In this document: positions 24,980 through 55,993 of the stretch, piece by piece
Layout of the letters: each line of letters starts with the position of its first letter
Numbering within the stretch: position 1 is the first letter of the stretch
Made by a program: the position numbers and the translations under genes
Assembly (NCBI GenBank): GCA_965285935.1
Contig: OZ260664.1
Location: 18,352,001-18,416,000 of the forward strand
Direction: 5' to 3'
Length of the DNA stretch: 64,000 bases
From: Ophelia neglecta
Taxonomy: Eukaryota
The notes under the pieces: model-generated
Told to the model about the DNA's origin: nothing
Database searches by the model: none
The model's input: the letters and a program-made list of their open reading frames with translations, nothing else

Positions 24980-27516
24980 CTAGGCCAACCCTGGAATATT
25001 AAAATGTGCTACAATCAATAAGTTACTTATAAACTGCCGTGTTAAAGTAGAGTCAGATGTTTCATGTATCTCGCTTCGCTTTTTTAGCCATAGTGAGCGG
25101 TACCAGTTTTCCCTCTTCATCATGTCTTAGCAAAGTAGCAGAATTGGAGGTAGGCCTATGGTGTCGGTGAGTCGGCAAGGATTGGGGGAGGTGGGGATTG
25201 GGTGTGGCCCGATACCGCCAGTTAAGTGAGATCCGCCTCACAGTTTTGGAAAGGGATAGATGTATAAAAAGGGGGGGGGGGGATTTTAATTCAAATCAGA
25301 TCAAATCAAAATATTTAATTGAGCAGATTAGTCTGCTGATATAAAAGCTACGACAATGCTCATTTACAATGTGAACCATGTAAACAGCCTAGAGTTATTC
25401 AAAGCTGTTATTGAAGCTTATTTTTAACCATTTTCTTTCATTGTGCCAACGTAAAACGCCTTTTTCCTGCCATTGTATGTCATGCTCTATATCAGGATGG
25501 CTTTTAAACCTCGGTTGTCATTCAAATTCGAGTCCTCACCTCGATACATCAGGTATAAAGCAAAATGATGTTGGACTCGTTGCGAACGTTGTTAAATAAT
25601 ACTAACCAGTCTGCTCCAATTTGGTGATTAGTGCCTTCAACTCTTCGTCCAATGCCTTCTTACCTCTTAAAGATAGATTATTATTATATTGTAAGTAAAA
25701 GGTTATAATGGTATCTTTGCAAAAGGGAACAGTGATTTTAATGAAAATACTGTTTCAAAGTGGGATATACAAAAAATGGTTCGGATGCTCTGTTTTAGCT
25801 ATGGGATTTTCATACGTTATTTGCCTATTGACTTATTGATATAATTGTTATATACCGGTCTACATAAAATATACTCTGGCGCATCTTTGTAGTTAATTAG
25901 TGGGGGTCCAACAGCGTGCAGAAAAACAATTACAATAGAAGGAAAATTGTTAACAATTGATAGACTCGTCGGATCATTCTAAGCGGTATGGTGGTAGAAC
26001 GAAATCACCATTGAATTGGGCGATTTATGTAGAATTTTTTAGTGAAACTCAAATGCAATGGATGGATGTTCTGGGACTTCTAATATGCAACTGCAAGAGA
26101 AACCCTTACGGCTCAGTAGAGATTGTTGTTTCTTGGTAGCCTAAATATCTGTCTGTCGTAGCATCTTCGGTTACGGTGTAAACATGGTAGGACGTTCCCG
26201 GTTCCAGACCTTCAATGGACACAGCATGGTCTTTTCCTTTAAGCCATCCCCAGTCGACCTTAAAATCCGCCAATTCGTCCCAAGTCTTTCTTTTAAACAC
26301 TGGAGTTGGCTGTAAGTATTTATTTGTATAATTGCTATTATTTTGTTGATATTAGTAATAATACATTACTCCTTATTTGCTTCTTGTAAGTACCAAAATA
26401 TTCAGTGAGCCACACATGTGATATCGTCAAAGTAGCATTCTATACGCTAAGAACCGAACGCTATTTGCACTAGGTTTATTATGAATACGTTTGAACCATA
26501 ATCAATGTTTATATTAACACGTTCGATGACTGTTGTTATCTGAAACAGTGTGTTCTGTGGGTTTAGGTAGAATTATAGATCGACTTATTTTCGATCTTAA
26601 TGAAGATTGCTACAGTTAATGCGAAACAATTTTGTTGCCATTCGGGCAAATTTATAGGCAAGCAAACGAAGAACAGTTGGGAGATTGCGAAGTGGGTTTA
26701 CCCAGAGTGGTGTTTGGGGCGAATATACCACGATAATTCTTATAAGGTGTGTAATAAGTTGTTGGGATAAATGAGAACATGGGAACCAGTTAGTTTAAAT
26801 TGCGTTAAAAAATACAAAGAGGACGAAACGCAGACGATCAAAACCGGCACCAAATGACCAAGCAAACACATTCTCAGAGATTACCAAAACCGAATGCACA
26901 ATATCAAAGCAAAATAAGTATAAAATAATAATCATGGTCAGTATAAAAATAATTCACATACATTGAAGAGCGACTGCGGAGCTTAATTCCATACTTTTAT
27001 CTGAACAATTCCCCTTATTGTAAGATCAGTAGCATACCGGCTTGTCAGCGACATATGTTTCTCCATAATACATAGACATTATGAAGCCTTTTCCCTGACC
27101 ATCGCCCCAGGCTTTATCATAGTCTAAGGCGACAGCAATTCTGTCGGAGTCTGAATCCGCCTTATAGATTTTACCATAAGTCGATCCTATAACAGAAAAC
27201 AATTTCCTTCCTCTGTTTCGGTTCATAAAACGTGTATGCGATATGATATGGTGGTGTAAAGTACTTATATTAGTAGTGAGAGAAAATACAATTCTATAAA
27301 TGTCTCATGACTTGAGACAATTCAAAGTTTACAAATGCTTTTATGCTGTTTCTCTTGGAATCGTTTAATGTTTAAACCTATGCCCTATTAAACATACTAA
27401 TAAATTAGATAATTACCATATTTTTCCAATTTGCTGATAAGCTTTTGCAGCAGATCTGTTGGCGATGCTAGGACATCGGTCCCTAAAAGGGATAGCAGGA
27501 AAACGAATTTCCACAT
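24980..27516 (-). CDS. Secreted protein with one divergent FN3-like domain and helical tail (family member A, 1 repeat, about 170 aa)
   Basis: Exons 27516-27417 (MWKFVFLLSLLGTDVLASPTDLLQKLISKLEKY), 27186-27038 (KIYKADSDSDRIAVALDYDKAWGDG..), 26309-26110 (KTWDEL..VDWG..SIEGLEPGTSYHVYT), 25665-25607 (GKKALDEELKALITKLEQT). Ends either by read-through (GGT TAG, about 25602) or a tiny last exon 24990-24980 (GLA*); the 3' end is uncertain. Intron phases 1,0,2,1 as in paralogs. Confidence 0.8.
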
Positions 27517-36684: not shown

Positions 36685-36863
36685 CAGTGAAACCTGTGTT
36701 TGTGGTCACCTGGGTAACAAGGTCACCTGACCACTAAGGTAACAAAATAATACCCTGATCCACATTTATGCCTGTGTTCAATGACCTGCGTATTAAGGTC
36801 ACCTTCATAATGTGGTCAGTTTTTACCAGTCTCTTGACTGACCTGTTTAGACAGGTTTCACTG
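36685..36863. mobile_element. Tc1/mariner-type MITE (179 bp)
   Basis: Perfect 13-bp TIRs cagtgaaacctgt / acaggtttcactg flanked by TA on both sides (36683-36684, 36864-36865). Confidence 0.85.
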
Positions 36864-37612
36864 TATATGTATAACATGGAAGATCAATAGCGGCGTCGTA
36901 AATCTTCCTTAGGACGTCGTCTAAAGATTCTATTAAGAAAGCGCTATCTTGTGGTCTGGTAGGACATTCAAGACTGATAACGTCTTGATAGGAATTTAGG
37001 TAAATCATATATTATAATATGCATTTTAAGCTATTCTTGCCATGTTGGCCACTATAGTTGCTGCTCTACATTTTCAAATGACCCCAAATGATCAGATAGC
37101 TTTACAAATCCACCTGCGCTTACACCGCACCTGGTTGATCAGAAGACAGCTGATCGAAGAACGAAAAACGTACATATATATATGTGCGGCAATGTTATGT
37201 TTATTTCTTCGATCTCTACAGTTAGAACAGTATACAGTCAAGTAGAAAGCTAAAACTATACTATTTAATGAATATTTGAATAACAATACAAACGTATATA
37301 TCTAAAAGGGATGCCGTTATAAGCATTTGGCGAATATCCATGTTGAATTTCTATTTTTCTGTTTTGCATTCCACTTGATGACTACTGTTCATACTGGTTT
37401 CATTAGTCATCCGTCATTCAAGGTTAAGGTCAATCCTAAAAAATCAGAATGAACTACGTTTGTAAGTGCACATCAAAATTTAAAAATTTAATTAAAGTAC
37501 TAAACAAACTGTCTTCGCTAATATGTTTTTCAATGAAAACACTATTATAGGAGATTTTGAAAGAGTTTTCTTACTTGAACGTTTTGGCGTGTTTCCAAAT
37601 GTGCCTTTCTAG

Positions 37613-40600
37613 TTAAAGGAGATCCTTGAGAGCTTTTAGAAAGGCCTTCACGTCCAAAGACTTTGCAGCCCTACAAAAAATGTCACCACGGTACAAGTAT
37701 AAAGGATAGCTTTCGAAAGAACGAGGAGTAATGTTGGTTATGTCTATTATGCTCAACAAAATGGCTTTTCTGCCTTTTTCATGTAAGGGACGATACCACT
37801 GAGGGATAATAATATTTTACAATGTATCTATCTATTAAAAAATTGACACCAAGATAGCATGTTGGACATCAGTTAATATTTTAAGGTAAGAAGTGTATTC
37901 AGCTTGGCATTGAAACAAATTGCATATCATCTTATCAATTCTACAGAAATATAAAGCACAAAGTATGCCTACTTTGTAGAGACGGTTTTTGATTGGCCGC
38001 CTATTTTTGCACCACCGCTATCATAAACTTCCGTCTCCACCACATAGGACGTGCCCGGGTCCAAGTTATCGATGGACACAGCGTATTTATAGCCATTAAA
38101 TTGGCCCCAATTCACTGCCCACTCGGATCTCTCCAACTCGGACCAAGTTTTTCCGGTAAACAAAGCAACCCTCTATAAAAAAAAAGTACGTTCAGTTGGC
38201 AACATTTGTTTGAATCATAAAAAGGCATGAACACTTAAGTGTAAATTATGGCTACAGCCTAACTAGTAAATTGTAAAAACTAAAAGTGAAATACAAAAGG
38301 AATTGGCACGCCTAACTTGCAACAGGTGCCGTATACACACATACATACATGCCAACACTGGGGTTTTATTTGTGATGCAAACTTTATATTTGCTTTCTAC
38401 GGCAGTGCAATCTTATATGGTTGACATTAACATTGTTATAGGATAAAGTATATCGTGTCTAATTTACACTTGCGTGTTTCCAGTCTATGTCTCTCTCTTT
38501 TGGTAGAAATATTTATGCACCGACGAACAAGGTGTCAAACGTGCACCTTCCGAAATTATAGTTCAAGTGAGTATTTCATGACATACAACACGGCATGGTT
38601 ATCTTTAGAAATATTAAATATGTTTGATTTTGTTGAATTTTTGACATATGTGTTGAAAAACGTGGGCACACAAGTCGTTAATGAGCAGACCTAAGATAGG
38701 GTTGGAACATTACAATATACTAGCTTTAGACAGAAAAGCATATCACACATTCGCTAACACACCTTGTTGCACACAAAATACTATAGGAATTTGCCTAGTT
38801 CATTCCCAGTTTAAATATCGATAAAAAAAAGTACCGGCGTATTGTCAGACTTATAATACAGGGACATTGTGAAGCCAGCTCCCCAAGATGCATCTTTTTG
38901 TAAGAAGACAGCAATAGAATCGGAGTCAGAATCGGTCTGATAGATGTTACGATTGCTCATCTCTGGAAACAAAAACAAATGAATGTTTAATAAATTATGA
39001 GTAATGGCTTCATGCTGTATACTATACTGCAAGACGTTTATAATTTAAAAAAACGGACACGCGAAGATAGATACTCATTCATAAGACCAGCGCCTATACT
39101 CAATGGCTGCAGCAAATGCAAATTTCACAAACATAGCCGACATGCATTTTAGGTTTTGGGGATATTTTTTCCTATATCCTTAGATATAGAATTTTACCGG
39201 AATGTTTTAATCATTACACGTAAGGTTGATACTTATTAGTCCTAGGCATTAGTCATATTGATTCAGTGGCCTTTGACTCCCAGTTATAAGATCCCAATGT
39301 CTCCGGACACTTATATAGTCGCTCAGCGCTTTTGCACATGTGATAACAACAGGAAAATACTTTCTTATTCGAGAATATATTTCATATAAGCAGGTGGCAA
39401 GCAGCAGTGTAGACTGACAACTATTCGTTGATGTACCGAATCACCTCATCCATGACATACCGCGTTGCATGATATATATTTTGTGGGTGCATATGATTAA
39501 AAAAAAATATTGATATAAATGTGTGTTTACTGAACTTTCCATCGTTATTCATTCAATCTGACCGGTGTTGTGAACTAAGTAATATTCTAGTTTTAATCTT
39601 CCAGGCCTTGTACCATTCTTGATACAGCCTCGGGGACGTCATTGACCAGGCTGTGTTCTAGCTTATTGGTTTAACGGTATGAATGCATGGTTTAATCAAT
39701 TTATTTTGGTAGCATAGCTTAAAAGGTTTGACGGGCTGTTGTAGTTTTCATCCACACCTACGCAGATCTGATATAATGATTTTACCATGGGCTGTTTCGA
39801 TACGTTTTTTTTAAATGTATTACCTTTGGCCTTCAGTTTTTTGATAAGTTCTTCCAACTCTTTGTCCAAATATTTCTTCGTTCTGGAACAAATATATTAG
39901 GTTTCTCCTCAAAAATTAGTCAATAGTCAATTGCGGCACTTACAAAGGAAAACAGTCTGAAAGCTGGAAGCGAGCTTAAGCTAATAATTGAATCAATATT
40001 TTGTATTAAAATTAAGTTACCATGTACTTATAAATTACGACAAGAATTCACAGGTAGTGAGATAGTTTACATTATGCTGTGCGCATGCATGTCGGTGCAG
40101 TGTAAATGTTAGTTCAGAACTGCAATATAGTAAAGAGGCTTTCATCGGAAATAAAACGCTAAACTTGCTGAAACTTACAGAGGCGCCTTTGGAAGAACGA
40201 GACAAGTAAATATGTGGTATCCAATACATTTAGGTAATGAAATTAAACACAAAACAATGATTACTTTAGACATAAATTGCATCCCATGGCAAGGAAACAC
40301 TCACCCGGTAGTAGAAATTGTACGTGATTGGCCCCCAATACGGTTACCGGAGGAATCTTGGACGTTGGTGTACACTGTGTAAGCCGTTCCGGAGGACAGA
40401 CCATCAATGCTCACAGCATGGTTGTAGCCGTTGAGCTTCCCCCAATCCACGTTGTAATTCGCCAATTGAGCCCAAGTCTTACCCGAAAACACTTCTGTGG
40501 CCTGCAATATATTATATATTTTTTATTTTTGGTAAAACTAAATTCACTTTAGAATCAGAAAGCTACACTAAGCATCGTTGGAATGAATTAGAGCAAACTA

Positions 40601-41517
40601 GTTGAATACAATTACATTTCCAAACTTTTTAATGAGACAATGCGGACTTAAATGTTCATATAAATTACCTAACATTGTATTTTATACAGAATATTAAGAA
40701 AGTAAAATTTGTCATGGCCTTAAGACTTATAATTGTAAATTTTATATGGCCTTGTCAATATAAAGACCAGTACTATAACAGTCGCGCTCATAAACTCAAT
40801 GTGGAAGACAAGCAAGCAAAATTAACTCCTAAACAGTCTGGCAGAAAGCAATTTTTATATTCAATCGTAATGAAAAGCTTACTACTTCACTCAGAGGCAC
40901 AAAAGTAAAATTATTGTCTGGGCCTGTAATTATATATTAATAGATTTGTCGAGGGCGCAGTCTGTGGCTTACTATTATGAACTCTCAATTTTCATTGGAT
41001 TAAAATTGAAAAAACTACCTGAGCGTCAGCCGCATTAGCTTCTTTGTAATGGAGAGACATGACGAATCCATTCCCATTCCCGTCGCCCCAGCTTTTATCA
41101 AATTGTAGAGCAACGGCAATAGAGTCATCGTCCGAATCGGATTGGTAAATGTTACGACCAGTCATCCCTAAAAATGGTAAAAGAGCGTTCAAACACACAT
41201 GTTGTAAATACTGATTAAACATTTAATAAGAACGCAGCATCATGTAGGTTTATCGCCAAATAAAGTACTTCATATATAATACAAATAAAGCCTCTTTCAG
41301 TCAATTGATTGCTTATCATCATGACAAAACTAATATACAACACAACGCTATTTTGTCGTCGAACGTTAAAAACGATACCTCTTTCGCATAAGGTTAATAA
41401 AGAATGAAATATAATACCATCTTTCTTCAATTTGGCGATAACGTTTTTCAATGAATCTGCTGGTAAGGCCAGGACACTAGTTCCTAACAAGGCAACGAGG
41501 AAAACGGACTTCCACAT
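37613..41517 (-). CDS. Secreted protein with two divergent FN3-like domains (family member B, 2 repeats, about 296 aa)
   Basis: Exons 41517-41418 (MWKSVFLVALLGTSVLALPADSLKNVIAKLKKD), 41167-41019, 40501-40305, 39882-39824 (TKKYLDKELEELIKKLKAK), 38962-38835, 38172-37973, 37670-37613 (AAKSLDVKAFLKALKDLL*). 891 nt, all GT-AG, no stops. Confidence 0.88.
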
Positions 41518-44500
41518 CTTGACACCACTGATCCGGACTGCGCAAAGACTCCGGTCTTAGAGGGTGGTGGCTGTTTGCCGAGATAGCTATGGGTGCAGTA
41601 GCGCATGAACCATGACGATACCTAAACCTACTGGTTTGGATGGCTTGTGCGCTCCCAAGCTTAGTAAACTTTTCTTGATATAAACATTAAAACCAGGCTG
41701 TAACCTTACATGATTCTATAGCAGCTTCTACAGCATGTGCAACTACGACCTTTGTAGGTCAAGAGATGCCCAAAGGTCTTATTTCGGTATTTCCTTTGTA
41801 AAGACATTAGCCTCGTATATCTTTTTTAATGGAGTCAATTTCCGAGAGACAAAGTTGAAAAATCAATGTATATTGAGTACTCCATTCATCGATCAAATAA
41901 TCAGGAGCAGCAGCCACAGGGCCAAACACATCAGCACATCTATCTCAAAAACAATAAATAAACTTGTAATGCAAATAATACAGAATGTAAATATAAACAG
42001 TATATCACAGCAATAAAAAATAGTTAACAGTCTTCCATGATTATGTCTGTCTAAGCCTCACTTCATCAAGAATACATTATAAATTTGTCCAGCTGTATTT
42101 TATGGAAATGTTATTTTATTGTACTTGTTGCAAACGTCAATACTGAACTCGGTCTATTCTGTCAAAATATGAGTCAGATACCCTCTGTCCATATTATAAA
42201 GAGAATACTGTGTATCTTAGTACGGGACGGATAAAACAGCTTGATTCAATCGGTTTGGAAGGTGCCTAACATAAATATCAAGCATGTAGCCCCAGAGAAA
42301 AAAATCGCTAATTCTCAGAATATAAACTTTTTCAAACATAGTACAAAGACGTAGAACGGCGCCTATGGTGCGTTGCACTGGCATGTGCTTTCTGTGTACA
42401 AACTATTTTATGGTCCCCTTGTAATTGTTATTTAAAATTTAGAGACTGTGGAATGGCAAGGCTTTATATCTATACATTCATGTAAATGAGGAAACCTGAT
42501 CTAAAGTAAACAGGTCTGTAGAAGGGCAGTTTTTAATGTGGTTTGATCTGACAGTCAATAATTTTGTCTCATTAGAGACCTCCACAGCTTCTTTTACGAG
42601 GCCCGAATATTTTAATGAAGCCCTTGTTTTCGAAGAACAGAGCCACTGTTGCCAACAGCTACTTATTATTTCTCATGCCGAGTTTATATTTTTATTTAAG
42701 TAACCGTTGTACTTTAAACCAAGAAATATGAAGGCGCTGGAATTTAGCGAAATTTGCAAACCCTAATGTTCATGTATTATCGATGCACATTATTTCTTTC
42801 CGCAGGAAATGACTGTAGCGATATGCACGGGGAAGCAATTTCTAGTCAAACATATATATGGTGACATAATATGTGCAAAGTTCATGCCCACGGAAATTTC
42901 CTGCTTATCAATATTTTCCAGCTTATGAAAACTGATAAATTTCCTGCGTGAGCTAATGAGGCCAACCATTATATCATTATTAGGTATGAGATTTTTTTCC
43001 GAGATTACGCTTTCTACTTTAATTTTAATTCACACCTGATATCTGCCCTGAATGTCTACTTAAATTAGCACATGTGTATTTGGTTTGGTTCTTATCTCCC
43101 TACATAGGAAAGCTGGGCCTCTTAAAGGAGCTTGTATGATCACAATAATAACCCCATCCCTTACCCCCTTGTATCAATAACAAAACCGATATGTTTGGGT
43201 AAGGATTGGGTTATAAAATGACTGATATTATAGTTTATTGGGCTTCCAATGCTGCTTTCGCCCGCACCATTCGCTTTCGCTGTTAACTGAAAGCCCAAAG
43301 GAAATACCCTTCCTGAGATTTGTGTAGGTTCTTAATATTATGGCATTCAGCATTATAATCCTACTCTTTCAACTGCAGTCAAACAGTTGATTAAATGGAT
43401 CACTGCATTGCCACTAGTGTTTGTACTTAGATAGCGCTTTCTGGCGACTAAGACGCTGAGGTACTGACAATAACGCACACTCAAACATCTAAGTAGGTAA
43501 CGGGAGATGACACCTGGCTGACCAAGCCAAATCATTTATCAAGGAAAGAAAGAAATCGTTCAGAAATCATCAGGAGGCAGCAGCCACAGACACACATGCA
43601 TCAATATATCAATCTCTACCTCACAAAAGTAAATTCATTTACATAAACAATATAAATGAAAACATGAATTTTATATCAATGAAAGTGATCAGCAGTTTCA
43701 TATTGTGACAGACAGAACAAACGAGTCACTCGTCAACGTCGGGCAGCGATTAAATATGCCCTTGGGGAATCAGTGATGGTCTAAACCCTCTTATTAGATA
43801 GAAACCAAATATATAATTGACTCAATAGACGCGTTCCTGCACGAGGCGACGCGCGCTGTACACTTGACCGTGCAGTTCAGCGAGAATCTCTATGGTTCTC
43901 CAAAAGCAGATAGTTAAGCATTCTCGATGCTACTTTGCTTATAGGTCCCTTACAATAGTATAACATAATTGTTTCGGCATGGCTTACCATGGCAGCTGGG
44001 GTCAGAGTTATGCTTTCGCCAAACAATTTTCATCTGTTTATTTAAAATTATAGAAAATCTTCGACATGCACCACTTAATTTAGGCAAGCAAGTTATCATT
44101 ACGCACATGGCATTAATTGCATTTACGACTGTTGTGATGTGAAAATAGTTCTAATTGTACTTTGGCACGTTTGCATGCTACTGATTCCCTTTTCCAAGTG
44201 TCCGTATCTGCCTAACTTAATGTTCAAATTGGCCTCTACGACGAGCAACTCCACTATAATGCAGTAGCCGGGCAGCAAATCCTGACACAATGTGCTGCTA
44301 TGCTGCGCCTTAAGAAATACGAGTTAGAGTTAATACTAGTATCTTCTAAAACCGACCTTAACAGGTTCTGCTTTCGTGAGAGGAGCAGACATCCTCCAGT
44401 AATTGGTCGAGTAGGTTCTCATCACTCTTCACAGTAGCTTTCCAACGACACTTGGGAGCAGTAATTCATTAAAGTAGCATCTCAACAATCTCACACTTGA

Positions 44501-46334
44501 GTTCATACTTTTGGCAAGTGGCCATTGGACTCCCACAATATTGAGAGTAGCCAGATGATTCCGTTGTGGCCAAACCGTAGATAGCCGGGCAGAGTTATGC
44601 TATGAACTTTTGCAATTTCTATTTTAAGATATTGACCTTAAGTCACACAACGTTGTATCAGATCTTTATCAATATATATAACTGGGGCCCATATGCATTA
44701 TTATTCATTACCCCATTTGTCTCGTACTTTATTAATCAAAGTGATATGCCATTTGTTAACCTATTAGTTAATCTTTTATTGTGTTTCCACACTCATAACC
44801 TCGATGTCCATTTGTGTCATTGGCAATAAACCATTCTATACACGTTTCAATAATGTCACACTACAGACTTCAATTTCTAGATTGCAATGATATGAAAATG
44901 TGCTATTTAAATGGTAAGAAAATTTGCTATATGAATTATTCTATTCAGCCAACCGAGTTAAACGATATCAACCCATCATAAACATGAGGCATGCAAACCA
45001 TGAAAGATTTTTAGCAAGGATTGATATAAGACGCGTTCAAAAAAACAAATAATAGCGCACAGCGTGCACATCTAACGTGGCTAAAGGCCCTGCTATTCTC
45101 ATTTCAAATTGTTCATGTATACAGTAATACATAAAATCAATGTCACTACCTTTGCAACTGAAGATTTAAAACAAAAACTAGGCAGTCTGATTGCGTAGAG
45201 GAGTTGGTTCGCACTAGCTAGTTGGGACTAGCACAATAGAAACCCATATAACCAAGATTCCTTCTATCTACCTCTTTTTTATAAGCAACAAAATGAACAT
45301 AAACATTAATGGCTCCCTTATGTAAATGTCAAAAGTGTAGACTATAAAATGTACTTTTTAACATATTCAATCAAAAAAATGTGCCTTGGTAATAAAGGTG
45401 TGAGACTTCTTTCAGTTATTGCCATGAACAATTACGTCGGGTAGGCTACTGCTTATGTGCAGTTGCAGTGAAGTGCGGGCATAGGCAACTTACATTAGGC
45501 TTTGGAAATGGGTTAGAAATAGTGTTAATGTGCAAACATATACGTTCCAATGCAATTCCCGCACCCGCAATATAGCCCTATTGAAGGCTTTCTAAGAATC
45601 AGCAAATAGCTCCTTTGCTGCGTCTTCAAGAAATCGCAATATATTTATTATACCTAAGTATCAGATGACTAGCATGACCTAAACGGCGAACAACTGTCAA
45701 ACAGATTGAAATTGCTTCTTTGCCCCTTTTCTTTTCTTGCATATTTGGCGATTACTTATAATTTAAGTTTACGACATTTTCCAATTTTTAAAAAGTCGAT
45801 GCGAACGAAAATTAAAAAAAATTCACTCATCGGCTTCGGCTGGTCAAAAGTATAATTAGATGCAAATTGATATAAGCAAAATCTCTTCTGTAATTCTTCC
45901 AAATCAATTCAATGAAATTTGAAATAAAATATCATATTAATATCTAGCAAATTCTGCAATATATTACGTGGGAAACTCGGATCGTGTGGACTATTGTCCA
46001 TGACCAAAATAGGATAATATAAGTGAGGACAGCATACATAAATGAAATTAGTGTTGGTCTATCAAGTTGATAGACAGTATAATTTTAATGAGGAATACTT
46101 CAATATTGCATTGATAAAAATCACCTGATAAAAACTTGATGATATAAACTCAACATTGGATCAACAGGGGTTATATTTTAAAAAATGGATGACAAAGAAC
46201 AGTGATTCTTTTACCGCCGACTCCCGAGTCCTTTCACTCGCACTTTGGCACTGAAGCAAGTCTCGTGACAGGAACATTTCATTAATATGGCTTGAAAATT
46301 ATATTGAAGCTTTTTTTTTATCAAAATAACCCCT

Positions 46335-46460
46335 TCCTCTTCTGCCCGCCTCCCCTTACCCGCATGACCCAAATAACCCTGCTTCCCCCTTCCATCCTCC
46401 CACTTCGGCCTCCCCCACGCCCCCCCCCCCCCTCCAGCCCCTGTCCCCCTCCGTCCCCAC
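46335..46460 (-). repeat. C-rich low-complexity tract (G-quadruplex potential on - strand)
   Basis: Many C3-C13 runs; a similar G-rich tract lies at 32095-32144 in an innexin intron. Confidence 0.6.
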
Positions 46461-49403
46461 GATAATGAAGCAGATAAGGATGTGTTCGTTTCAGTCCGAA
46501 ACGCTTCTACTGTTATATTATTTTGGTCGTTAGAAAATTCAACAATGTCAGAAAATTGCTAATTTGTTCATTGTAAAAATTGTAAAAAAGTCCTCAAGTC
46601 TTTTCGGTTCTCAACCACTACCATGTAACAAGAAACCTCTCACATGTATCAGATTCAAAATATTGACGTCCGCCCTAATTGGTTTTTTGGTCAGTCGACT
46701 AGGCGACTGGCAGTACTGGTAAGATATGCAGAGTATTCGCTTCTGTTCTTGTAAATAAGTAAGTTAATTGGTCTTATCCCCGCATTAATAAGCTAAACTG
46801 CCTTGCCATGTGCACTTTTCAAATTAGGTATTCTTTATTTAGTTTTGTTTGAACACCATCAAATTCTATGTTAAAATATTTTTCTATATTCATAATTTAT
46901 AGATGTAGATTTATAGATGTAGATTTATAAGATGTTCCCTGATATTCCGTTTGATTGTGGTAAGTGATATATTTTAATCGTAAATTTCTTTATTGAAAGC
47001 ATCCAAAAAGGATAGATAACCGCACTGACAGTAGTTCCCTAAAATATAATCATTTAATAGATATATAATAGTCGCCCATAACTACCTGTCAAATCGCAGA
47101 TATATTATTGTGTACACAACATGATCATAAGTTCCCTTGTATCGACTAAACAGGTACTTGTTCGGGTTTCACCTCACATGTGCTTCTTCTTTCTTTATGA
47201 TAAAACAAGGTAATTTGTATACGTTTTGGGACACATCTAGGTGTGCTATTAGTCATTTTAATTAATTAGGCGTAAAGGTTAACACCTAGGAGGCAACACC
47301 TTCTCGGTAACGTCATATAAGAACTATTATCTCTGAAGATGGCGGGTATTATTTGTAGCATAGCGCACACAGAGGTAATAAATTTCAGAGGTCTGTTAAG
47401 AGATATTGCGGATTGGCAAAATGTACTAAAAAGAAAATTGTACTTCATGGAGGGCAGCATTAGACGATACGTACAACTGGCCAACTGTCAACCAAATGGA
47501 AACATTTCTTTTCAATAAAATGGGAATTAATATTTGTGATTTATACTTGATCTACTTCTCGCGCTAGATCCTCTTCGTAACGAGCCTGCTGACAACCGCC
47601 TCACATTGCCATTAAGTTGCATTTGACATTGGCCAGCTACGGTGAACGCTGTAATTAAAATACACGCATGCCCGATAACTTCTACGCGCCCACGTGGCGC
47701 TCCAAATACGAACAGGGCAGGCTTTACAAACGAACAACAAACATGCATGTTTTTTGTAAATGACCTACGTCTAAAGTTGACTCCACCTATTTATCGATTG
47801 AAATCTTGCCGGTCGGTACCGCGCGCCGTCGCATGGCCTGGCGAACGAAGCGAAGATTAAAGTATTGTGCGAGCATTCACGTTCCTATGGCATTGGCGCC
47901 TAAAGGAGTAGCTCTGGTGTGTATATGCATCTATATATTTATATATATTGGTTTTATTAAAGGAACAGTCTCATCTCTTCTGTCAAGTAGTATTATAACA
48001 TGTGGTTGTGTATCATAATGGACCAGACGGCAATTCCTATTATAGTACCAGTCATACTACTTGACGTAATTATTTATACATTTGCGTTAAAAAGTGATCT
48101 TGTACATAAGCGGTGTAAACTTCATCAGGTAAAATGCTGCTATATAGAAATGTTAATTACCATCAAACATTAGTGAAGGTACAGTTTATAGTCTACACAT
48201 AGTGCCTGTGCTTTCAATCATGATACTAAAGTGATCAGTGTCAGCCTGAATTAGTCGTGAACCAATCGAATTTCAGGCACGCACTTGAGAAATCCCTGAT
48301 GCGACTTTTTGTCGATAATGTTAAATAAGGTTATAAGAATGTACTGGCCTCAAAATCAACAGTGAGTTTTTGTGCTTGTATAGTATACTGTATAAAACTA
48401 AGTGGCACAATATAAACGTTGAGTCTAAGTTTCGAGAAAAGTTCCTGTGAACTTGAATAGCAAATGCGAACAATCTTAGGAGCTGTTCAACTTTAGGGAT
48501 CTTCCAAAGCGAGTATTCTTACAAACGTATACCGTAAATTAGCCTGAAAATAATGAAGCACTCCGTAAATTCTTCACCTCAAATCACAAGTTGTCGAATG
48601 AAACTGGCATTTTACCAAATATATATGTTTTGTCCGTCCTGCTAAGCCAAAACATTTAAGAGTGCTTCGGTTTAAATTATTCCCAAGAAATGTATAAGGA
48701 TTGCCAATATACACTAATCAAGTTTCCAGTGACCCAAATGTTTCAACCAGATAGACTGTGCTTATCAAATGTGCTATATAACATTATTTTCAAATCCGCC
48801 ATGTGCTTATACCACACCTGGTTGAGCAGAAAACCACTGGCAGTTGAAGTTTAACATAACCAAAATATGCTGCAATGTGAATTTATTCTGTTGATCTCTA
48901 CATTTAGAACAATAAACAGTGAAGTGAAAAACTACAAAAACATTATAAAATGAATATTTTACTAACAATACTAATATATGAATCAAAAATCAAAAAGTGA
49001 TGAAAGTTATAATCATTTGGCGATTATCCATCTAATCTAGAATTCATATATTTCTGTTACGTGCACCTTTAGCTTAATCTCTACTGTTCATACTTGTTTC
49101 ATTCATTGTCCGTCATTCCAATTTCAGGTCAATCCTATAAAAAAATGTACTACATTAATGGCTGTTCACAATTGAAACTCTTATTTTATTTAAACACTAT
49201 TTTCACCTCATAGTAGAATAAATTGATTAGAGTCTAGAGATGAGGGGTTGGGGGATGATGTGCAATATCTAGTCCGGATAATTTTATTTATCATTGTCGC
49301 CCGAGTTCTGTAACCTGCGTTTACTATTTGATGAAAGCGGAAGAATTTATAATGAATGCTCTTACTCTGTCATGTCCATGTGTCTACGAATGTGTCTTCA
49401 TAT

Positions 49404-52400
49404 TTAAACGAGGTCCTTGAGAGCTTTCAATAAGGCCTTCACGTCCAAAGACTTGGCAGCCCTTTGAAAAATAGTTCAACGTTACCACGGGTAGCTTGGC
49501 GATGAAATATATTGCATGGCCGTATTTGCAATTCTACAGAAATATAAGTATAAACTCAAAATATATTACTTTGTCGAAACGACTCTTGATTGGCCGCCAA
49601 TTTTTGTACCACTGCTGTCCTTAATTTCCGTCTTAACCACATAAGCAGTGTCCGGTCTCAAGCCATCGATGGACACAGCGTATTTAAAGCCATTAAATTT
49701 GCCCCAATCAACTGCCCACTCAGATCTCTCCAACTCGGACCACGATTTGCCCGAAAACAAAGTATCACTCTATAAAACAAAACATTCATTTGGCACCATT
49801 TGCATGGATCACAGTAAGTTGGTAAACCTTAACGGTATATTTCTTTATGGTTATTGCCAAAAGACTAATTACTACAAAGTAAACGTGTAATACATAAGGA
49901 ATAAGCATACATGCTCGCCTAACCTAACATGGTATCAAGCTCTTATATGTTCAACGGAAACATTGCTATAAGACCAACTATTTAGTTGCCAATTAACTTG
50001 TGTTTTCCAGCCAGGCTCACTACACTATTGTTTTGTAGAAACGTTATTTTAATCAAAGAAAGAGACATCAAACATAAAGCTTCTATAACTATACTACTAG
50101 TGGGATTTATACAAGCCTACATGGTGATCTTTGATATTGAATATACAGTATTTAAGTTAGAACTTCTTAATATACATGAATGTTTTTAAAAAATGTGGTA
50201 GAAATTATTTTTTAATAACAACAGCCTTAATAACAACAGCCAGGAAGACTGCACAAATTTTCATTCGCTTACACACTTTGTCCAACATAGAAGTACTCTA
50301 ATGATTTGCCTAGTTTACGCCCAGCTTAATCAGCTTAAATGTCAAGTTAAAACGTACCGGCCTGTCAGCGACATTCTCATAATTGTAGTACAACGACACC
50401 GTGAAGTCATTGCCCCATGAGACATCTTTTTGTAGGTAGACAGCAATTGAGTCGGAGTCAGAATCGGTCTGATAGATGTTACGATTGCTCATCTCTGGAA
50501 ACAGAAAGAAATGATATTTTTAATGAAATGTGTGTATTGAATATGTGTTCACATAAATTATGTTTCCTATTCACTGATTAACATGGTATAACCCACTCCA
50601 AATAACACAGTAATCGCGGGTAGGGATTTTGGTTTTTGCTACAAGTTCCACCTACAGTTAATCGGTGGCAAAAACTGAAAGTCCTACTGGACTCGTAAAA
50701 CTGGGTTTGTGTTTCCGGGTCAATAAAAAGTGTCCTTTACATTTTCATCATTTTAATTTATACATTTAACATTGTATGTTGATAGTTATCATTATATGTG
50801 AGGCGCATACTATTCCTATCTACGGACACTGAGTCCTAGAAATCATATTCCTATATGGATTCAGTGTCCCTAGAGACTGAGTTATAAAGTCTCAGTGTCC
50901 CGGATTCTCCGATCGTGCAAGCTCAGTTCTTTGGCACCTGTGGTACCACATGAAAATAACAGTTTACTCGAGCATGGTGATATCATAGGATAGGACGTGC
51001 ATTACAGACCAAAAGCTTTTCTTTGAAGAAGCGCATACTTTCATCCAAGCGCTACTTTGTTAAATGATAGATTGATATACGTTATACGTGCACATGGTTG
51101 GAAAAATATTAATATAAATGCATGTAAATGAGTTTTCCTAATAAAGATCGTGTTGCTTTTAACATGATTTGCGCTGTGCATTCAATTATGTTTAAGCATT
51201 AACTGGATTGAGCGCCTACTGGGTGAATTTAACTGTTGGTACAATTACTGGTCCTGCATTGGTGACGTCCATCCAGAATGCCGCATCATTTTATATGTGG
51301 ACGCTGCGTGGCTGTATGCTAGCTGCGAATGGTATGAATGCTAATGGTTGCAAGATTTTAGAAAATAATTTTGGTCTCACACTTCATTATGAGTTGCCAC
51401 CCTGTCGGGGTAAAACGTAAAAGGTCTTAATTGTTTTATTTTAAACACATCAAGACACGTCTGATATAATGATAATACCAGGGGCTGCTTCTATACTATC
51501 GTGTTTTCAGCTCTTACCCTTATTCTTCAGTTTGTTGATCAGTTCTTCCAATTCTTTGTCCAAAGATTTTTTCGATCTGAAACAAAAGATCATATTACAA
51601 CTCGTTTTATATAATTATACTGAGTAGTATAGATGTTAGGTCTAAACTTCAGGACGGTAAAGTTTTATAGGAAGTATGAATGTTAAACTAGCTGAAAGCG
51701 TTGGCAAACTTGATATCTAATGTCCATGCATTTAGTTAAACAACAAATTTGACAGTTACCATGACAGTTAAATACAATATAATGCTTCATGAGACATATA
51801 TTGTGTACAACAGGAGAGAAAAAACTAACCCGGTAGTAGAAATGTCGCGAGATTGGCCTCCTATACTATTACCGGAGGAATCTTGGACGACGGTGTACAC
51901 TGTGTAGGCGGTTCCGGGGGACAAGCCATCAAAGTCCACAACACGGGTTTGGCCTTGAAGCTTTCCCCAGTCCACTTTGTAACTCGCCAATTCAGCCCAA
52001 GTCTTATCCGCAAACACTTCTGTGGCCTGATAGTAGTTATTCGTACAATATATTTTGGTTGAAACAGAACTGTTAAAATCAATTTACATTGTATGATATT
52101 CAGTGGAGTATCCATTGGGTCAAAACCCTGCCATCAACACCTGCCCCAACATAACTATAGGAACAGAACGCTACACCATACATTTGAGATGAATACAATT
52201 GAAGAGTGAGCAGGCTAGTTCACTTATTTATCATCGTCTTGTGACACTGGGCTTTAATGTACAAAAATAGTATCTAGAATTAAATTTCAAAGGAGGTTGT
52301 TGACTTGGCTGGAACTCGAAAACACAAATATAATTCAATTTTATATAGAATAGGACAAATCACTTCTCTTAAAGTTGTCTTTACCATGATAACTTATACT

Positions 52401-55400
52401 ATTACTAGGGAACTATAAGCCTTAAGGCCTTTTCCTAATCAAAATGACGCTGTATAATACTAATTTCCTTTCCGTTTTAATACTGCTTGTAGCCCTTATA
52501 TCATTCTAAAATGATTAATTACCGCTATTTCTTTATGAGAGATCCATTCTTACATGCAAAGTGTTTGCGAAACAAAGTCATAGTTTGAAAAAAGAAAACC
52601 GGTCTTTAGGCTTTTCCAATTGCGGTCAAGTTCAAAATTGGTTGGCAACCTGGAAACTACTCTGAGGTCCAACAATATTTGATAATTCGAGGTGTTTCAT
52701 GTAGAGCGCTTCACAACTGGCAATTATAAATATTCTTGTTCACATTATTCCCGGTCATGCAAATGAGACACTTGATGAACAAAACATTAGGCCCCGGGAT
52801 GTAAGCGTCATTTTCCTAACACTTAATGTGGAGGACATGTTGTGCAAAACAGCCAGCCAACAAAACCCTGACTGACCAACTGGCAAGCATAGAGATCATT
52901 TAACATTTAATCTATCTCAATATCTTACACATTCACTCAGGTTCACAATAACAAACTCATTATCTTCCCAAGTGATAAAATGGTTACACATACAGTGAAA
53001 CCTGACAATTAGGGACAGCAAAGGGACTGGGAAATCTGTCCTCTTTTCTCAGATGTCCTTATTTCGCAGGCTACTTTACATGTAAAGTATTACAACTGTA
53101 CTAAAAACAATGTCCTTAATAGTCAGTGTGTCCCTAATTGTCAGGTTCCTTTAGGCCAGGTTTTACTGTATATCGAAGGGCACAGATATTATGAATTCCG
53201 ATGTTTTTATGATAATAAGCTTACCGGGCGGTCAGCCACATTAGCGTCCACGTAATAAAGAGACATGGTGAAATCATTGGGCCAGCTTGTATCGCGTTGT
53301 AGAGATACAGCAATAGAGTCATCGTCCGCATCGTATTGATAAATGTTACGAACGGTCATCACTGAAAAGGATAAATGAGAGTTGATATACACCTGCCGTA
53401 AATATCCATATGCAAGATGTATTGCTCTGTAGCTTCATTTAATGTATAAATAAAGCTTCTGGCAAGAGGTAGAGACTGTTTGCCATTCTTTGATGTACTG
53501 AGTCCGATTATCCAAATATTGTTATTGGGTGTATGGATTAACCAACTTACTTTGGTGACATACTAAAATGTATCGATTCTTGTTTGATATTCACATTACG
53601 ACACACCTGATATAGAGATTTAGCAAACGGCTTCTTTTTATACAGTCGCGTATTTAATGTCTTACCCTTGGCCTTCAGTTTGTTGATTACTTCTTCCAAA
53701 GCTTTTTCCAAAGATTTCTTCGTTCTGAAACGAAAGGCCGGATTATAACTGGAAGATTAACATACCCGTATTGCTGTACATGGTATTGTTTGCATCCAAT
53801 TGAAACAGTCAACAGGGATTATAATGAAACAAAAACCAGTCTAAAAGCTTGAAGCGAGCTTAGAGACACATTTAATATTTTGCTTGTACATATAACGTTT
53901 GGTTAAGAGCACACAGAAGGTGATGTAGTGAACAACATTATGTGCGCAGACATATCTAAGAAGTATACCTGTTACGACCGGCTTTCATCGGACGTGAAGA
54001 GCCGAAAGTGTTGAGGGACTTACAGACGCACGAGCATGTGATGTCCAGAGCATTAAGGTAAACAGCAAATTATTTGAAAGTTTAAAAAGGTTGAACATAA
54101 TACAAATATTTTTTAAGATATTTAAAGTATCCAACAGTAGAGAAACACTAACCCAGTTGTAGAAATGTCGCGTGATTGGCCCCCTATATTGTTTCCGGAG
54201 GAATCTTGGACGATGGTGTATAGTGTATACTCCGTTCCAGATTTCAGACCATCAATGCTAGCGACACGGGTTTGGCCCTGAAGGTCTCCCCAGTCCACTG
54301 TGTAACTCTCCAATTGAGCCCAAGTCTTATCCGCAAACACTTCTGTGGCCTGCAAGTTTTTAGACGTATAATATATATTGGTTTTTACAGAAGTGATATA
54401 TTAAATTACATTTTATGATATTGTTTGCAGTTGAGTCTCCATCGGGGCAAACCCTGCCATTAAACGCGAGCAGGAATGTCACAAATAGGAATAGAATGTT
54501 ACACCCATCATATTTGAGATTATTACGTGTAAGGTATAATCAGCCTATAGACCTGGCTATTTCAATACATATATATTTCCAAACACCGTTATGTGAAACG
54601 GCGATACATATAGACTATCTTAAATTAGGTTGCATATAGCGTTTGAAGAATCACGCCTGTTAGATATGGCCCTGACACATATTGGCGTATAGCACAAATA
54701 TATGCCGACTTTTCTATGTCACGGTAGTGCACAGTAAGCGGTGAGACAAATAAGCGGTACGTTGGGCATAAGTAGCTGTAGATTTTTCAATGCAAAGTTG
54801 GACGCGTATGACCGTATTTTATCTCTTTTTAAAACGACGGGCATTCGTTCATGGTATTCATCAGTGTGTGACAGGATCATAAAGTTGTCATGACCTGACG
54901 AAAAATAAATAAAAAAAACTCTAAATGGTATGTAGCCTTGTCAAAAATCAAAATGGTGCCGTATACTACTAATTTCCTTCCTGTGTATATATTACTTGTA
55001 GGGTTTTTATACATATAAAAGATGAAATAGTCATTCTGGAATTCACTTCTTGCAAGTAATTTTTGTGCAATGCAAAGTCCTCTTTTTCAAAACAGATAAT
55101 AAACCAGGTGGCTATTCCAATTGGTTACTAATAGAAAATTAATTCGCAGCTTGGAAACTATTCTGCGGTCCAGCAATATTTGGTTAATCGAATCAGTACA
55201 GCCCTGAACAGAATGGATTCTGGTCACTATAAATACTCTTGTTCGCATTATCCCCGGTAATGCAATTAATACACTTGAAAAATTGAAAGATAATAGGACC
55301 GGAGTTGTAAGAGTAATGCTCCTTAAACGGGGGAATAATGGGGAAGACCGAGGGATCATTTATATACAATGTTACTCACAAGATAACACATTCACTTAAA

Positions 55401-55993
55401 CTCCCAGTAACGACATCTATATCTTGGCCTGGCAAAATAGTTTACACGTACATTGAAGGGAGCAGAGCAAAGCACACTATTATGAACATCCGATCATTTA
55501 TTTGATAATTTAAAGCCTACCGAAACGTCAGCCAGTGAAGATTCCACGCAATAGAGAGACATGGTGAAGTCATTGGGCCAGCTTGTATCACGTTGTAGAG
55601 ATACAGCAATAGAGTCATCGTCCGAATCGTATTGATAAATGTTACGATCGGTCATCCCTGAAAATGATTAAAGAGAAAGTTCTATAAAACCTGCCGTATA
55701 TACCTATGAAACATATTATAAGACCACATTGCTTTGTTAGTTACTCGTGATATAAAATACTTCATTTTTAGTATATATAAACCCTCTGACAATCATCTTA
55801 AAGCTTATTAGTATCGACCTCTACAAGTGTTTTTACAATCCTAAAATGTAAGAGCTGCTGTGATCTTAGTTTAAATGCTATGAAATGCAATACCATCTTT
55901 CTCCACTCTGCTGATAGCTTTCGTCAGCTTTTTTGCTGGTAAGGCCAAGATTCCAGTCCCAAACAGGGCGAGGAGGAGCACGGACTTCAACAT
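49404..55993 (-). CDS. Secreted protein with three divergent FN3-like domains (family member C, 3 repeats, about 426 aa)
   Basis: Exons 55993-55894 (MLKSVLLLALFGTGILALPAKKLTKAISRVEKD), 55657-55521, 54349-54153, 53724-53666, 53361-53225, 52026-51830, 51576-51518, 50494-50358, 49769-49570, 49461-49404 (AAKSLDVKALLKALKDLV*). 1281 nt, all GT-AG, no stops. Confidence 0.88.
50824..50900. repeat. Nested inverted repeat (ggacactgag / ctcagtgtcc) in gene C intron
   Basis: 50824-50836 pairs with 50857-50869 (12/13) and 50824-50833 pairs perfectly with 50891-50900; decayed homolog in gene B intron at about 39240-39310. Confidence 0.6.
52993..53168. mobile_element. Tc1/mariner-type MITE (176 bp) in an intron of gene C
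   Basis: TIRs cagtgaaacctg / caggttttactg, TA on both sides; extra 19-bp inverted repeat aacctgacaattagggaca (52999-53017 / 53129-53147); the paralogous intron near 55449 shows the empty TA site. Confidence 0.85.

What the first reader, a model, noticed from the sequence alone, without database searches (positions are those of the whole stretch)
37613..53724. Lys-Lys-headed amphipathic spacers suggest a processed polyprotein that also releases short helical peptides
Seen: each domain is followed by a dedicated 58-59-nt exon: G-TKK-YLDKELEELIKKLKAK, G-TKK-SLEKALEEVINKLKAK, G-SKK-SLDKELEELINKLKNK, P-GKK-ALDEELKALITKLEQT (gene A, 25607-25665), and terminal AAKSLDVKAFLKALKDLL / AAKSLDVKALLKALKDLV. 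The pro-peptide after the signal (LKNVIAKLKKD, LQKLISKLEKY) matches the second half of the spacer, so every domain is bracketed by the same helix. Five of six domains begin ..R-NIYQ. Known: dibasic sites are prohormone convertase targets and G-K-K is an amidation/cleavage signal. Inference: either the precursor is cut into single domains plus 16-19-aa amphipathic peptides (the terminal one is cationic and resembles membrane-active peptides), or the helices bundle as short coiled coils to multimerise the protein.
Basis: partly seen in the sequence, partly recalled or inferred. Interest (0 to 1): 0.7.

Follow-up and report, generated by a model that had tools for sequence, protein, structure and literature searches.

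The report
Helix-bracketed secreted fibronectin-domain protein family
This invertebrate (probably a segmented worm) has a gene cluster for predicted secreted proteins of one to three fibronectin-like domains, most of them flanked by the same short two-faced helix, which likely holds chains together rather than being cut out as a hormone-like peptide.

Summary
The sequences and exons are as described. They belong to a minus-strand cluster of eight gene units (three in the window, 14 domains) encoding predicted secreted FN3-like proteins. These were built by duplicating a three-exon module: two domain exons plus a 59-nt helix exon. The helices are amphipathic (15 of 16 beat shuffles), under purifying selection, and homologous to the end of exon 1. 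The prohormone reading is weak. Across 11 helix exons KK occurs in 6 and literal G-K-K in 1; no linker has KR or RR; predicted spacer peptides are net -5 to +1; the terminal 15-mers are +1 or 0 and lack an amidating Gly. Best reading (0.5): uncut chains whose helices dock on each other, giving multivalent FN3 oligomers. A rival survives (0.25). Lys|Ser/Tyr/Ala-Leu/Met-Asp/Glu stands in 11 of 11, and in the internal spacers it lies 16 residues from the exon end, exactly like the predicted signal-peptidase site in exon 1. One Lys cut would thus release uniform 14-kDa helix-FN3 units. No orthologue, RNA run or paper was found; splicing is predicted only. The scan had not noted this elsewhere.

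The parts
55894..55993 (-). Gene C exon 1: predicted 17-aa signal peptide plus 16-aa N-terminal amphipathic helix
   Evidence: signal site by the (-3,-1) rule, no SignalP run
55521..55657 (-). Gene C domain 1, first exon (phase 1 to 0); carries the protein's only Cys
54153..54349 (-). Gene C domain 1, second exon (phase 0 to 2)
53666..53724 (-). Gene C helix exon 1 (59 nt, T-K-K then helix)
53225..53361 (-). Gene C domain 2, first exon
51830..52026 (-). Gene C domain 2, second exon; best Pfam fn3 match (20.6 bits, E 5e-4, under the cut-off of 25)
51518..51576 (-). Gene C helix exon 2 (59 nt, S-K-K then helix)
50358..50494 (-). Gene C domain 3, first exon
49570..49769 (-). Gene C domain 3, second exon
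49404..49461 (-). Gene C terminal helix exon with stop (A-A-K, no KK)
41418..41517 (-). Gene B exon 1: predicted signal peptide plus N-terminal helix
41019..41167 (-). Gene B domain 1, first exon (predicted hairpin of strands A and B)
40305..40501 (-). Gene B domain 1, second exon (FN3 strands E-F-G motif)
39824..39882 (-). Gene B internal helix exon (59 nt)
38835..38962 (-). Gene B domain 2, first exon
37973..38172 (-). Gene B domain 2, second exon
37613..37670 (-). Gene B terminal helix exon with stop (A-A-K, no KK)
27417..27516 (-). Gene A exon 1: predicted signal peptide plus N-terminal helix
27038..27186 (-). Gene A single domain, first exon (no R-N-I-Y)
26110..26309 (-). Gene A single domain, second exon
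25602..25665 (-). Gene A helix exon, most likely terminal (only literal G-K-K; ends Gly-stop)

Best explanation
Genes A, B and C encode predicted secreted proteins in which one to three FN3-like domains alternate with 15-16-residue amphipathic helices, and the helices likely stay in the chain and dock on one another, so that the protein would form multivalent FN3 oligomers or networks. Shown: the exon structure in DNA, growth by duplication of a phase 1-1 three-exon module, homology of all helices, purifying selection on them. Inferred: each helix (about two heptads, 100-degree hydrophobic face) is too short to hold alone, but n+1 of them along a chain would bind by avidity. The Lys or Lys-Lys before each helix would be a linker or cap residue pairing with acidic residues at the pole where the chain leaves the domain, not a convertase site. 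The domains' ligand is not identified; an extracellular scaffold or recognition role (mucus, coelomic fluid or matrix) is the likeliest use.
For: Core pattern Phi-x-x-Phi-Phi-x-x-Phi in 15 of 16 helix segments; hydrophobic moment above shuffles in 15 of 16; hydrophobic arc 120-220 degrees in spacers. Pooled dN/dS 0.32 for five spacers and 0.13 for three terminal exons, against 0.53 and 0.21 for domain exons. Every helix-bearing protein ends in a helix with no domain after it (5 of 5), so the helix has a job beyond spacing. KK is not required: QK in gene E's internal spacer, AK in 3 and TK in 1 terminal exon. No KR/RR in 16 linkers. Two acidic positions (B1 residues 14 and 82 of the domain alignment) are D/E in 11 of 11 helix-bearing domains but in 0 and 1 of the 3 helix-less Z domains, offering a structural partner for the Lys; this is one evolutionary event and the loop positions are from recalled FN3 topology. 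Mature C and D each have a single unpaired Cys, which would suit an interchain bond. Z3 has no helix and instead a Cys pair tying the N-terminal segment to the domain start where others have Arg, which suggests that this segment stays attached.
Against: No oligomer was shown or could be modelled: the helix exon is 19 residues and the spliced protein is in no database. The second Lys is present in 11 of 11 helix exons and followed by S/Y/A-L/M, as conserved as the core Leu, and it sits in register with the signal-peptidase site. In mature D the only dibasic pairs are the two spacer KK. Gene E, which lacks the KK, has Q-K-R near the end of both domains, though within the predicted last strand. 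Lys-Lys is a real PC2 site in POMC (PMC8489426, passage). All splicing is predicted; there are no RNA data.
Confidence: 0.5

Rival explanations
1. Single-cut polyprotein. A Lys-directed protease cuts once per junction, after the Lys that precedes S/Y/A-L/M-D/E. This releases helix-FN3 units of about 14-15 kDa, each starting with the same 16-residue helix that signal peptidase exposes on the first unit, plus a 15-17-residue C-terminal peptide.
For: Site present in 11 of 11 helix exons. It is 16 codons from the exon end in all 6 internal spacers and in gene A's exon, the same distance as the predicted signal site in 4 of 5 first exons; nucleotide similarity between exon 1 and spacer is absent over the three codons before that point (0.21, 0.24, 0.06). 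Natural single-domain paralogues exist (A, Z1-3). Predicted units 14.4 kDa in B and 15.3 kDa in A. KK is kept in the early-branching gene A.
Against: P1 is always Lys, never Arg; no furin-type motif as in nematode polyproteins (PMC3079579, passage). The equal register also follows from helix length alone. Similarity is also low at codon 5 (0.05), so the homology border is not sharp. Known repetitive polyproteins have few introns in the repeats (PMC3079579); here each unit has three exons.
Confidence: 0.25
2. One reading: convertases cut at KK and again at the Arg of R-N-I-Y, releasing bare 12-kDa domains and free, partly amidated 15-20-residue helical peptides, the last one membrane-active.
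For: KK in 5 of 6 internal spacers; Lys at P6 or P8 of the Arg in 6 of 6 internal junctions (monobasic rule recalled). The Arg lies two residues before the first predicted strand, so it is not buried in the half-domain model. Gene A has G-K-K and a C-terminal Gly. Terminal helices are 53-60% hydrophobic.
Against: G directly before the basic pair in 1 of 11; the terminal Gly of A is the read-through of a G|GT donor shared by all spacers. Predicted spacer peptides are net -5 to +1; terminal 15-mers +1, +1, +1, 0 with no amidating Gly. A basic residue at P4/P6/P8 arises in 15-59% of shuffles and the six junctions are homologous. The Arg is absent in A and Z. Lys-Lys is called unusual against conventional Lys-Arg in insects (PMC10299861, passage). 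Platynereis proneuropeptides lack other Pfam domains (PMC3890597, passage).
Confidence: 0.1
3. The helices do not self-associate: each packs on its own domain as in myomesin's Ig-helix modules, or inserts into lipid or an air-water interface, anchoring a monomeric FN3 chain.
For: Helix-bearing domains share two acidic and one hydrophobic position missing in Z. Terminal helices have a wider hydrophobic face. Myomesin shows that sandwich-plus-helix repeats exist (PMC3279516, section 7).
Against: Only one hydrophobic column is specific to helix-bearing domains, too little for a helix-binding patch. There are n+1 helices for n domains. Spacer helices are weakly hydrophobic (mean H 0.04-0.31) for deep lipid insertion.
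Confidence: 0.15

Closest known systems
Fibronectin type III domain proteins (Pfam PF00041; PF16656 purple-acid-phosphatase N-terminal type)
   Same: E-F strand motif with invariant Leu and Tyr; profile matches fibronectin at E 1.9e-8 summed over repeats; profile-profile probability 95% local, 80% global.
   Different: About 110 residues, no Trp in strand B, N-terminal half matches nothing; short secreted proteins with helix exons between domains; no orthologue found.
Myomesin Ig-helix (IgH) repeats (PMC3279516; abstract and section 7 read)
   Same: Beta-sandwich domains joined by 4-6-turn helices whose start packs on the C-terminal tip loops of the preceding domain.
   Different: Myomesin is intracellular with Ig domains; here the protein is predicted secreted, FN3-like, and has helices at both ends, amphipathic along their whole length.
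Tandemly repetitive polyproteins: nematode polyprotein allergens (ABA-1) and filaggrin (PMC3079579; passages read)
   Same: Tandem similar units of about 14 kDa with a basic residue at each junction.
   Different: Those use K/R-x-K/R-R furin-like sites, have about a dozen units and few introns; here 1-3 units, Lys-only sites, three exons per unit, cleavage unshown.
Annelid proneuropeptides (Platynereis, PMC3890597; passages read)
   Same: Signal peptide and repeated K-K sites (their search motif was x(3-10)-K[K/R]).
   Different: They lack non-neuropeptide Pfam domains and signal amidation by Gly; here 85% of the chain is folded domain and Gly precedes the site in 1 of 11.

Membership tests
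FN3 domain (PF00041) | Score above Pfam cut-off of 25 bits | tested here: inconclusive
   Only half-domain exons could be scanned; 4 of 5 second exons list fn3, best 20.6 bits, E 5e-4
FN3 domain (PF00041) | L-x-P-G-T-x-Y motif of the E-F loop (motif recalled) | tested here: met
   Leu35 and Tyr41 invariant in 14 of 14 domains; aligns to fibronectin repeats
FN3 domain (PF00041) | Trp at the end of strand B (recalled) | tested here: not met
   Leu at that column in 14 of 14; an invariant Trp lies six residues on
FN3 domain (PF00041) | Seven-stranded beta-sandwich fold | tested here: inconclusive
   Half-domain models only: strands 6-11 and 16-20 (pLDDT 68), 40-44, 54-56, 59-63 (pLDDT 62); fold search best Z 2.4, rmsd 3.5 over 43 residues
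Proneuropeptide / prohormone | N-terminal signal peptide | tested here: met
   17-residue hydrophobic leader ending V/I/T-L/I-A in 5 of 5; judged by rule, no predictor
Proneuropeptide / prohormone | Peptides flanked on both sides by basic sites | tested here: inconclusive
   KK in 6 of 11 on the N-side, single Arg on the C-side; no KR/RR in 16 linkers
Proneuropeptide / prohormone | Gly directly before the basic site for amidation | tested here: not met
   1 of 11 (gene A only)
Proneuropeptide / prohormone | No non-neuropeptide folded domain (criterion in PMC3890597) | tested here: not met
   FN3-like domains make up most of the chain
Proneuropeptide / prohormone | Expression in neurons and mature peptides by mass spectrometry | not testable with these tools
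   No RNA holder listed; no proteomics
Tandemly repetitive polyprotein (NPA, filaggrin) | Tandem similar units | tested here: met
   Units within one gene 47-81% identical
Tandemly repetitive polyprotein (NPA, filaggrin) | Regular K/R-x-K/R-R furin-like sites | tested here: not met
   P1 is Lys in 11 of 11
Tandemly repetitive polyprotein (NPA, filaggrin) | Post-translational cleavage into units | not testable with these tools
   Needs protein data
Cationic helical antimicrobial peptide | Amphipathic helix | tested here: met
   Hydrophobic moment 0.77-0.86 for the terminal segments of B-E
Cationic helical antimicrobial peptide | Net charge of +2 or more, often amidated (recalled) | tested here: not met
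   +1, +1, +1, 0 for B, C, D, E and -2 for A; no Gly in B-E
Myomesin IgH module | Helix packs on the C-terminal tip of the preceding domain | not testable with these tools
   The spliced domain plus helix could not be folded

The most novel reading that the evidence does not exclude
A tandemly repetitive polyprotein made of FN3 modules, born by exon shuffling in one animal lineage. In each duplicated module the signal peptide was replaced, in exact register, by a Lys protease site, so one transcript yields several helix-FN3 monomers with matching N-termini plus a selected 15-residue amphipathic C-terminal peptide that acts on membranes.
Probability: 0.25. Interest if true: 0.7.

Novelty: new variant of a known kind. 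Interest (0 to 1): 0.42.

Why it matters
The architecture (helix-FN3)n-helix in a small secreted protein had no match in the protein libraries or paper searches run here. The cluster holds natural variants with 0, 2, 3 and 4 helices and with KK, QK, AK or TK, which makes the role of the helix directly testable. If uncut, it is a compact way to multimerise FN3 binding domains with two-heptad helices. If cut, it would add an FN3-based case to the tandemly repetitive polyproteins, which PMC3079579 calls rare, and show how one arises from a signal-peptide exon. It is not evidence for a new neuropeptide or antimicrobial precursor.

Tried and rejected
Homologue searches found nothing family-specific. 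One second exon against longer proteins: 0 of 78 candidates. Profile of 14 first exons: 0 of 7992 scored at E<=1. Profile of 14 second exons against 1.84 billion representatives: 1232 hits at E<=0.001; the 150 shown are long repeat proteins matched mainly on strands E-F, best single-domain score 20.3 bits against the whole-domain profile; 2 of 150 were Pfam-checked and are fn3. A distant single-domain relative under 56 bits would not have been listed. ESM Atlas: leads under 0.9 to fn3/PF16656 clusters, none for the first exon. Fold search with a half-domain model: best Z 2.4, uninformative. Complex prediction with the two domain halves and exon 1 of gene B: score 0.03, no verdict, not used as evidence. 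No RNA holder listed; three DNA contig runs of one sample cover the region. Paper searches for such a protein returned 0 papers or 3 unrelated ones judged by listing; a search on rarely cleaved Lys-Lys sites returned 0; PMC2731677 was not held. PMC9070308 (abstract, section 9) gave no KK-versus-KR ranking that I could use; PMC2603333 (passages) lists KK among the four dibasic sites. No supplements were opened. Rejected: gene A continuing into Z1 across 38 kb and three opposite-strand channel genes. Rejected: G-K-K as a general amidation signal. First exons for Z1 and Z2 were not found. One extra regex match inside a gene C helix was dropped from the count of 11 because it is not the exon-start site. 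Four look-ups in the scan's earlier findings gave nothing on this family.
Full report
Observation. Gene C (55993-49404) has 10 exons and 426 residues, gene B (41517-37613) 7 exons and 296 residues, gene A (27516-25602) 4 exons and 170 residues. Each domain is split into a phase 1-0 and a phase 0-2 exon and is followed by a phase 2-1 helix exon of 59 nt, so the three-exon module is symmetric and can be duplicated in frame. These models rest on DNA alone: no RNA holder was listed. DNA contigs of one sample cover the region, and single contigs span gene A.

Surroundings. The window is G000:C7:18352001-18416000 in a 762-Mb animal genome. Searching that genome gave 14 first exons and 16 second exons, two of them orphan fragments 1.6-2 Mb away. 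Stretches beside the window show two more helix-bearing genes, D (3 domains) and E (2 domains), and three single domains Z1-Z3 whose frame stops within a few codons of the last strand. No helix exon was found near Z. The candidate first exon of Z3 has no amphipathic segment (P 0.28); none was found for Z1 and Z2. Four Cys-loop channel genes lie among them on the plus strand. The 3 hits of 15 that carry an organism name for a channel exon are leech proteins at 68-70% identity, so the animal is probably an annelid; this is weak.

The domain is FN3-like. Pfam fn3 reaches 20.6 bits on one half-domain, under the cut-off of 25. The 14-sequence profile matches fibronectin and other FN3 chains in the PDB (15 sequences at E<=0.01). 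Profile-profile alignment to FN3 repeats gives 95% locally and 80% globally, the latter placing R-N-I-Y-Q on strand A with low confidence. The first half matches nothing on its own and lacks the strand-B Trp. Half-domain models are weak. No orthologue was found, with the limits given under Tried and rejected.

The helix is real and selected. Of 16 segments (5 N-terminal, 6 internal, 5 C-terminal), 15 have a hydrophobic moment above shuffles at P<0.05 and 15 share Phi-x-x-Phi-Phi-x-x-Phi. The end of exon 1 is homologous to the spacer at DNA level, 55% against 33% for codon shuffles. Pooled Nei-Gojobori dN/dS is 0.32 for five spacers and 0.13 for three terminal exons; the pairs are not independent and the exons are short.

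Is KK a convertase site? Against: it is in 6 of 11 helix exons; gene E has Q-K, three terminal exons A-K and one T-K. Literal G-K-K is in gene A alone. No linker holds KR or RR. With 16-37% Lys, some KK appears in 30-97% of shuffles. A double cut would give 20-mers of net -5 to +1 and terminal 15-mers of +1 or 0 without an amidating Gly, poor antimicrobial candidates by the recalled charge rule. In insects Lys-Lys is called unusual against conventional Lys-Arg (PMC10299861, passage). Platynereis proneuropeptides lack other Pfam domains (PMC3890597, passage). For: Lys-Lys is a PC2 site in POMC (PMC8489426, passage). The second Lys is in 11 of 11 and is followed by S/Y/A then L/M. In the internal spacers it lies 16 codons from the exon end, as does the predicted signal site in 4 of 5 first exons. 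Mature D has no other dibasic pair, and E has Q-K-R near both domain ends. All 6 internal junctions have Lys at P6 or P8 of the Arg, although shuffles give this in 15-59% and the junctions are homologous.

Mechanism. I commit to uncut chains with self-docking helices (0.5). The narrow hydrophobic face, the selected terminal helix with nothing after it, the tolerance of KK loss, and the lone Cys in C and D fit oligomer formation. Two acidic domain positions found in 11 of 11 helix-bearing domains but in 0 and 1 of 3 Z domains offer a structural reason for the Lys; gene A shares them although it groups with Z (99/96), but this is one event. None of this is shown. A single Lys cut giving 14-15 kDa helix-FN3 units is the main rival (0.25); it does not exclude helix docking afterwards. 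Packing on the own domain or on lipid gets 0.15 and the full prohormone model 0.1.

Comparison. It works like a secreted multi-FN3 scaffold and resembles myomesin's Ig-helix repeats in layout (PMC3279516, section 7), but it is not a member of that family. It fails the furin-site and intron criteria of nematode polyprotein allergens (PMC3079579, passages) and the amidation and domain criteria of proneuropeptides. Paper searches found no description of this architecture, in a library that lacks most subscription journals; supplements were not opened.

Verdict. A real, apparently undescribed lineage-specific family with an unusual helix-bracketed FN3 layout; a new variant of a known kind. The peptide-release reading is unlikely as stated, and a single-cut polyprotein remains possible. 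Interest 0.42.

Noticed in passing
window 1666-23404 (+) and L002/L003 (C7:18321734-18327930, +): Four tandem Cys-loop channel genes, 78-90% identical over two exons, interleaved with the FN3 genes. They keep P-A-R before TM2 and a loop-C Cys pair, which by recall marks glycine/GluCl-type anion channels. Gene A and Z3 each lie tail-to-tail with one. No functional link was tested.
   Followed up: partly
L003/L004 (C7:18330396-18339615, -): Z1-Z3: helix-less single-domain paralogues with Cys in place of the Arg before strand A. Z3's phase-2 donor-like site doubles as its stop codon, as at the same place in gene A, so intron retention could give a helix-less isoform of A.
   Followed up: partly
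window 55521-55657 (-) and L007:1946-2082 (-): One unpaired Cys in domain 1 of genes C and D, the only Cys of each mature protein.
   Followed up: no
L007/L008 (C7:18435930-18444098, -): Gene E domains are net +4 while the other 12 domains are net -2 to -12, suggesting a different ligand or a charge-complementary partner.
   Followed up: no
L010:1217-5868 (+): FNIP (folliculin-interacting protein) gene flanks the cluster, with very long open frames of 465 and 873 codons; useful as a synteny anchor.
   Followed up: partly
L012:157-306 (-) and L013:9200-9340 (+): Two orphan, broken copies of the second domain exon inside an inverted segmental duplication about 426 kb apart.
   Followed up: partly
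window 36680-36866 and 52985-53170: Short very high-copy repeats (summed contig depth about 20,000-167,000), probably small mobile elements; the second sits in an intron of gene C.
   Followed up: no
L006:1812-2546 (+): 245-codon open frame resembling an RNase H of a retrotransposon (recalled motif, not scanned) between genes D and C.
   Followed up: no
window 49452: An allelic difference in two contig runs of one sample falls on the third base of the conserved Lys codon of gene C's terminal exon and is synonymous.
   Followed up: no
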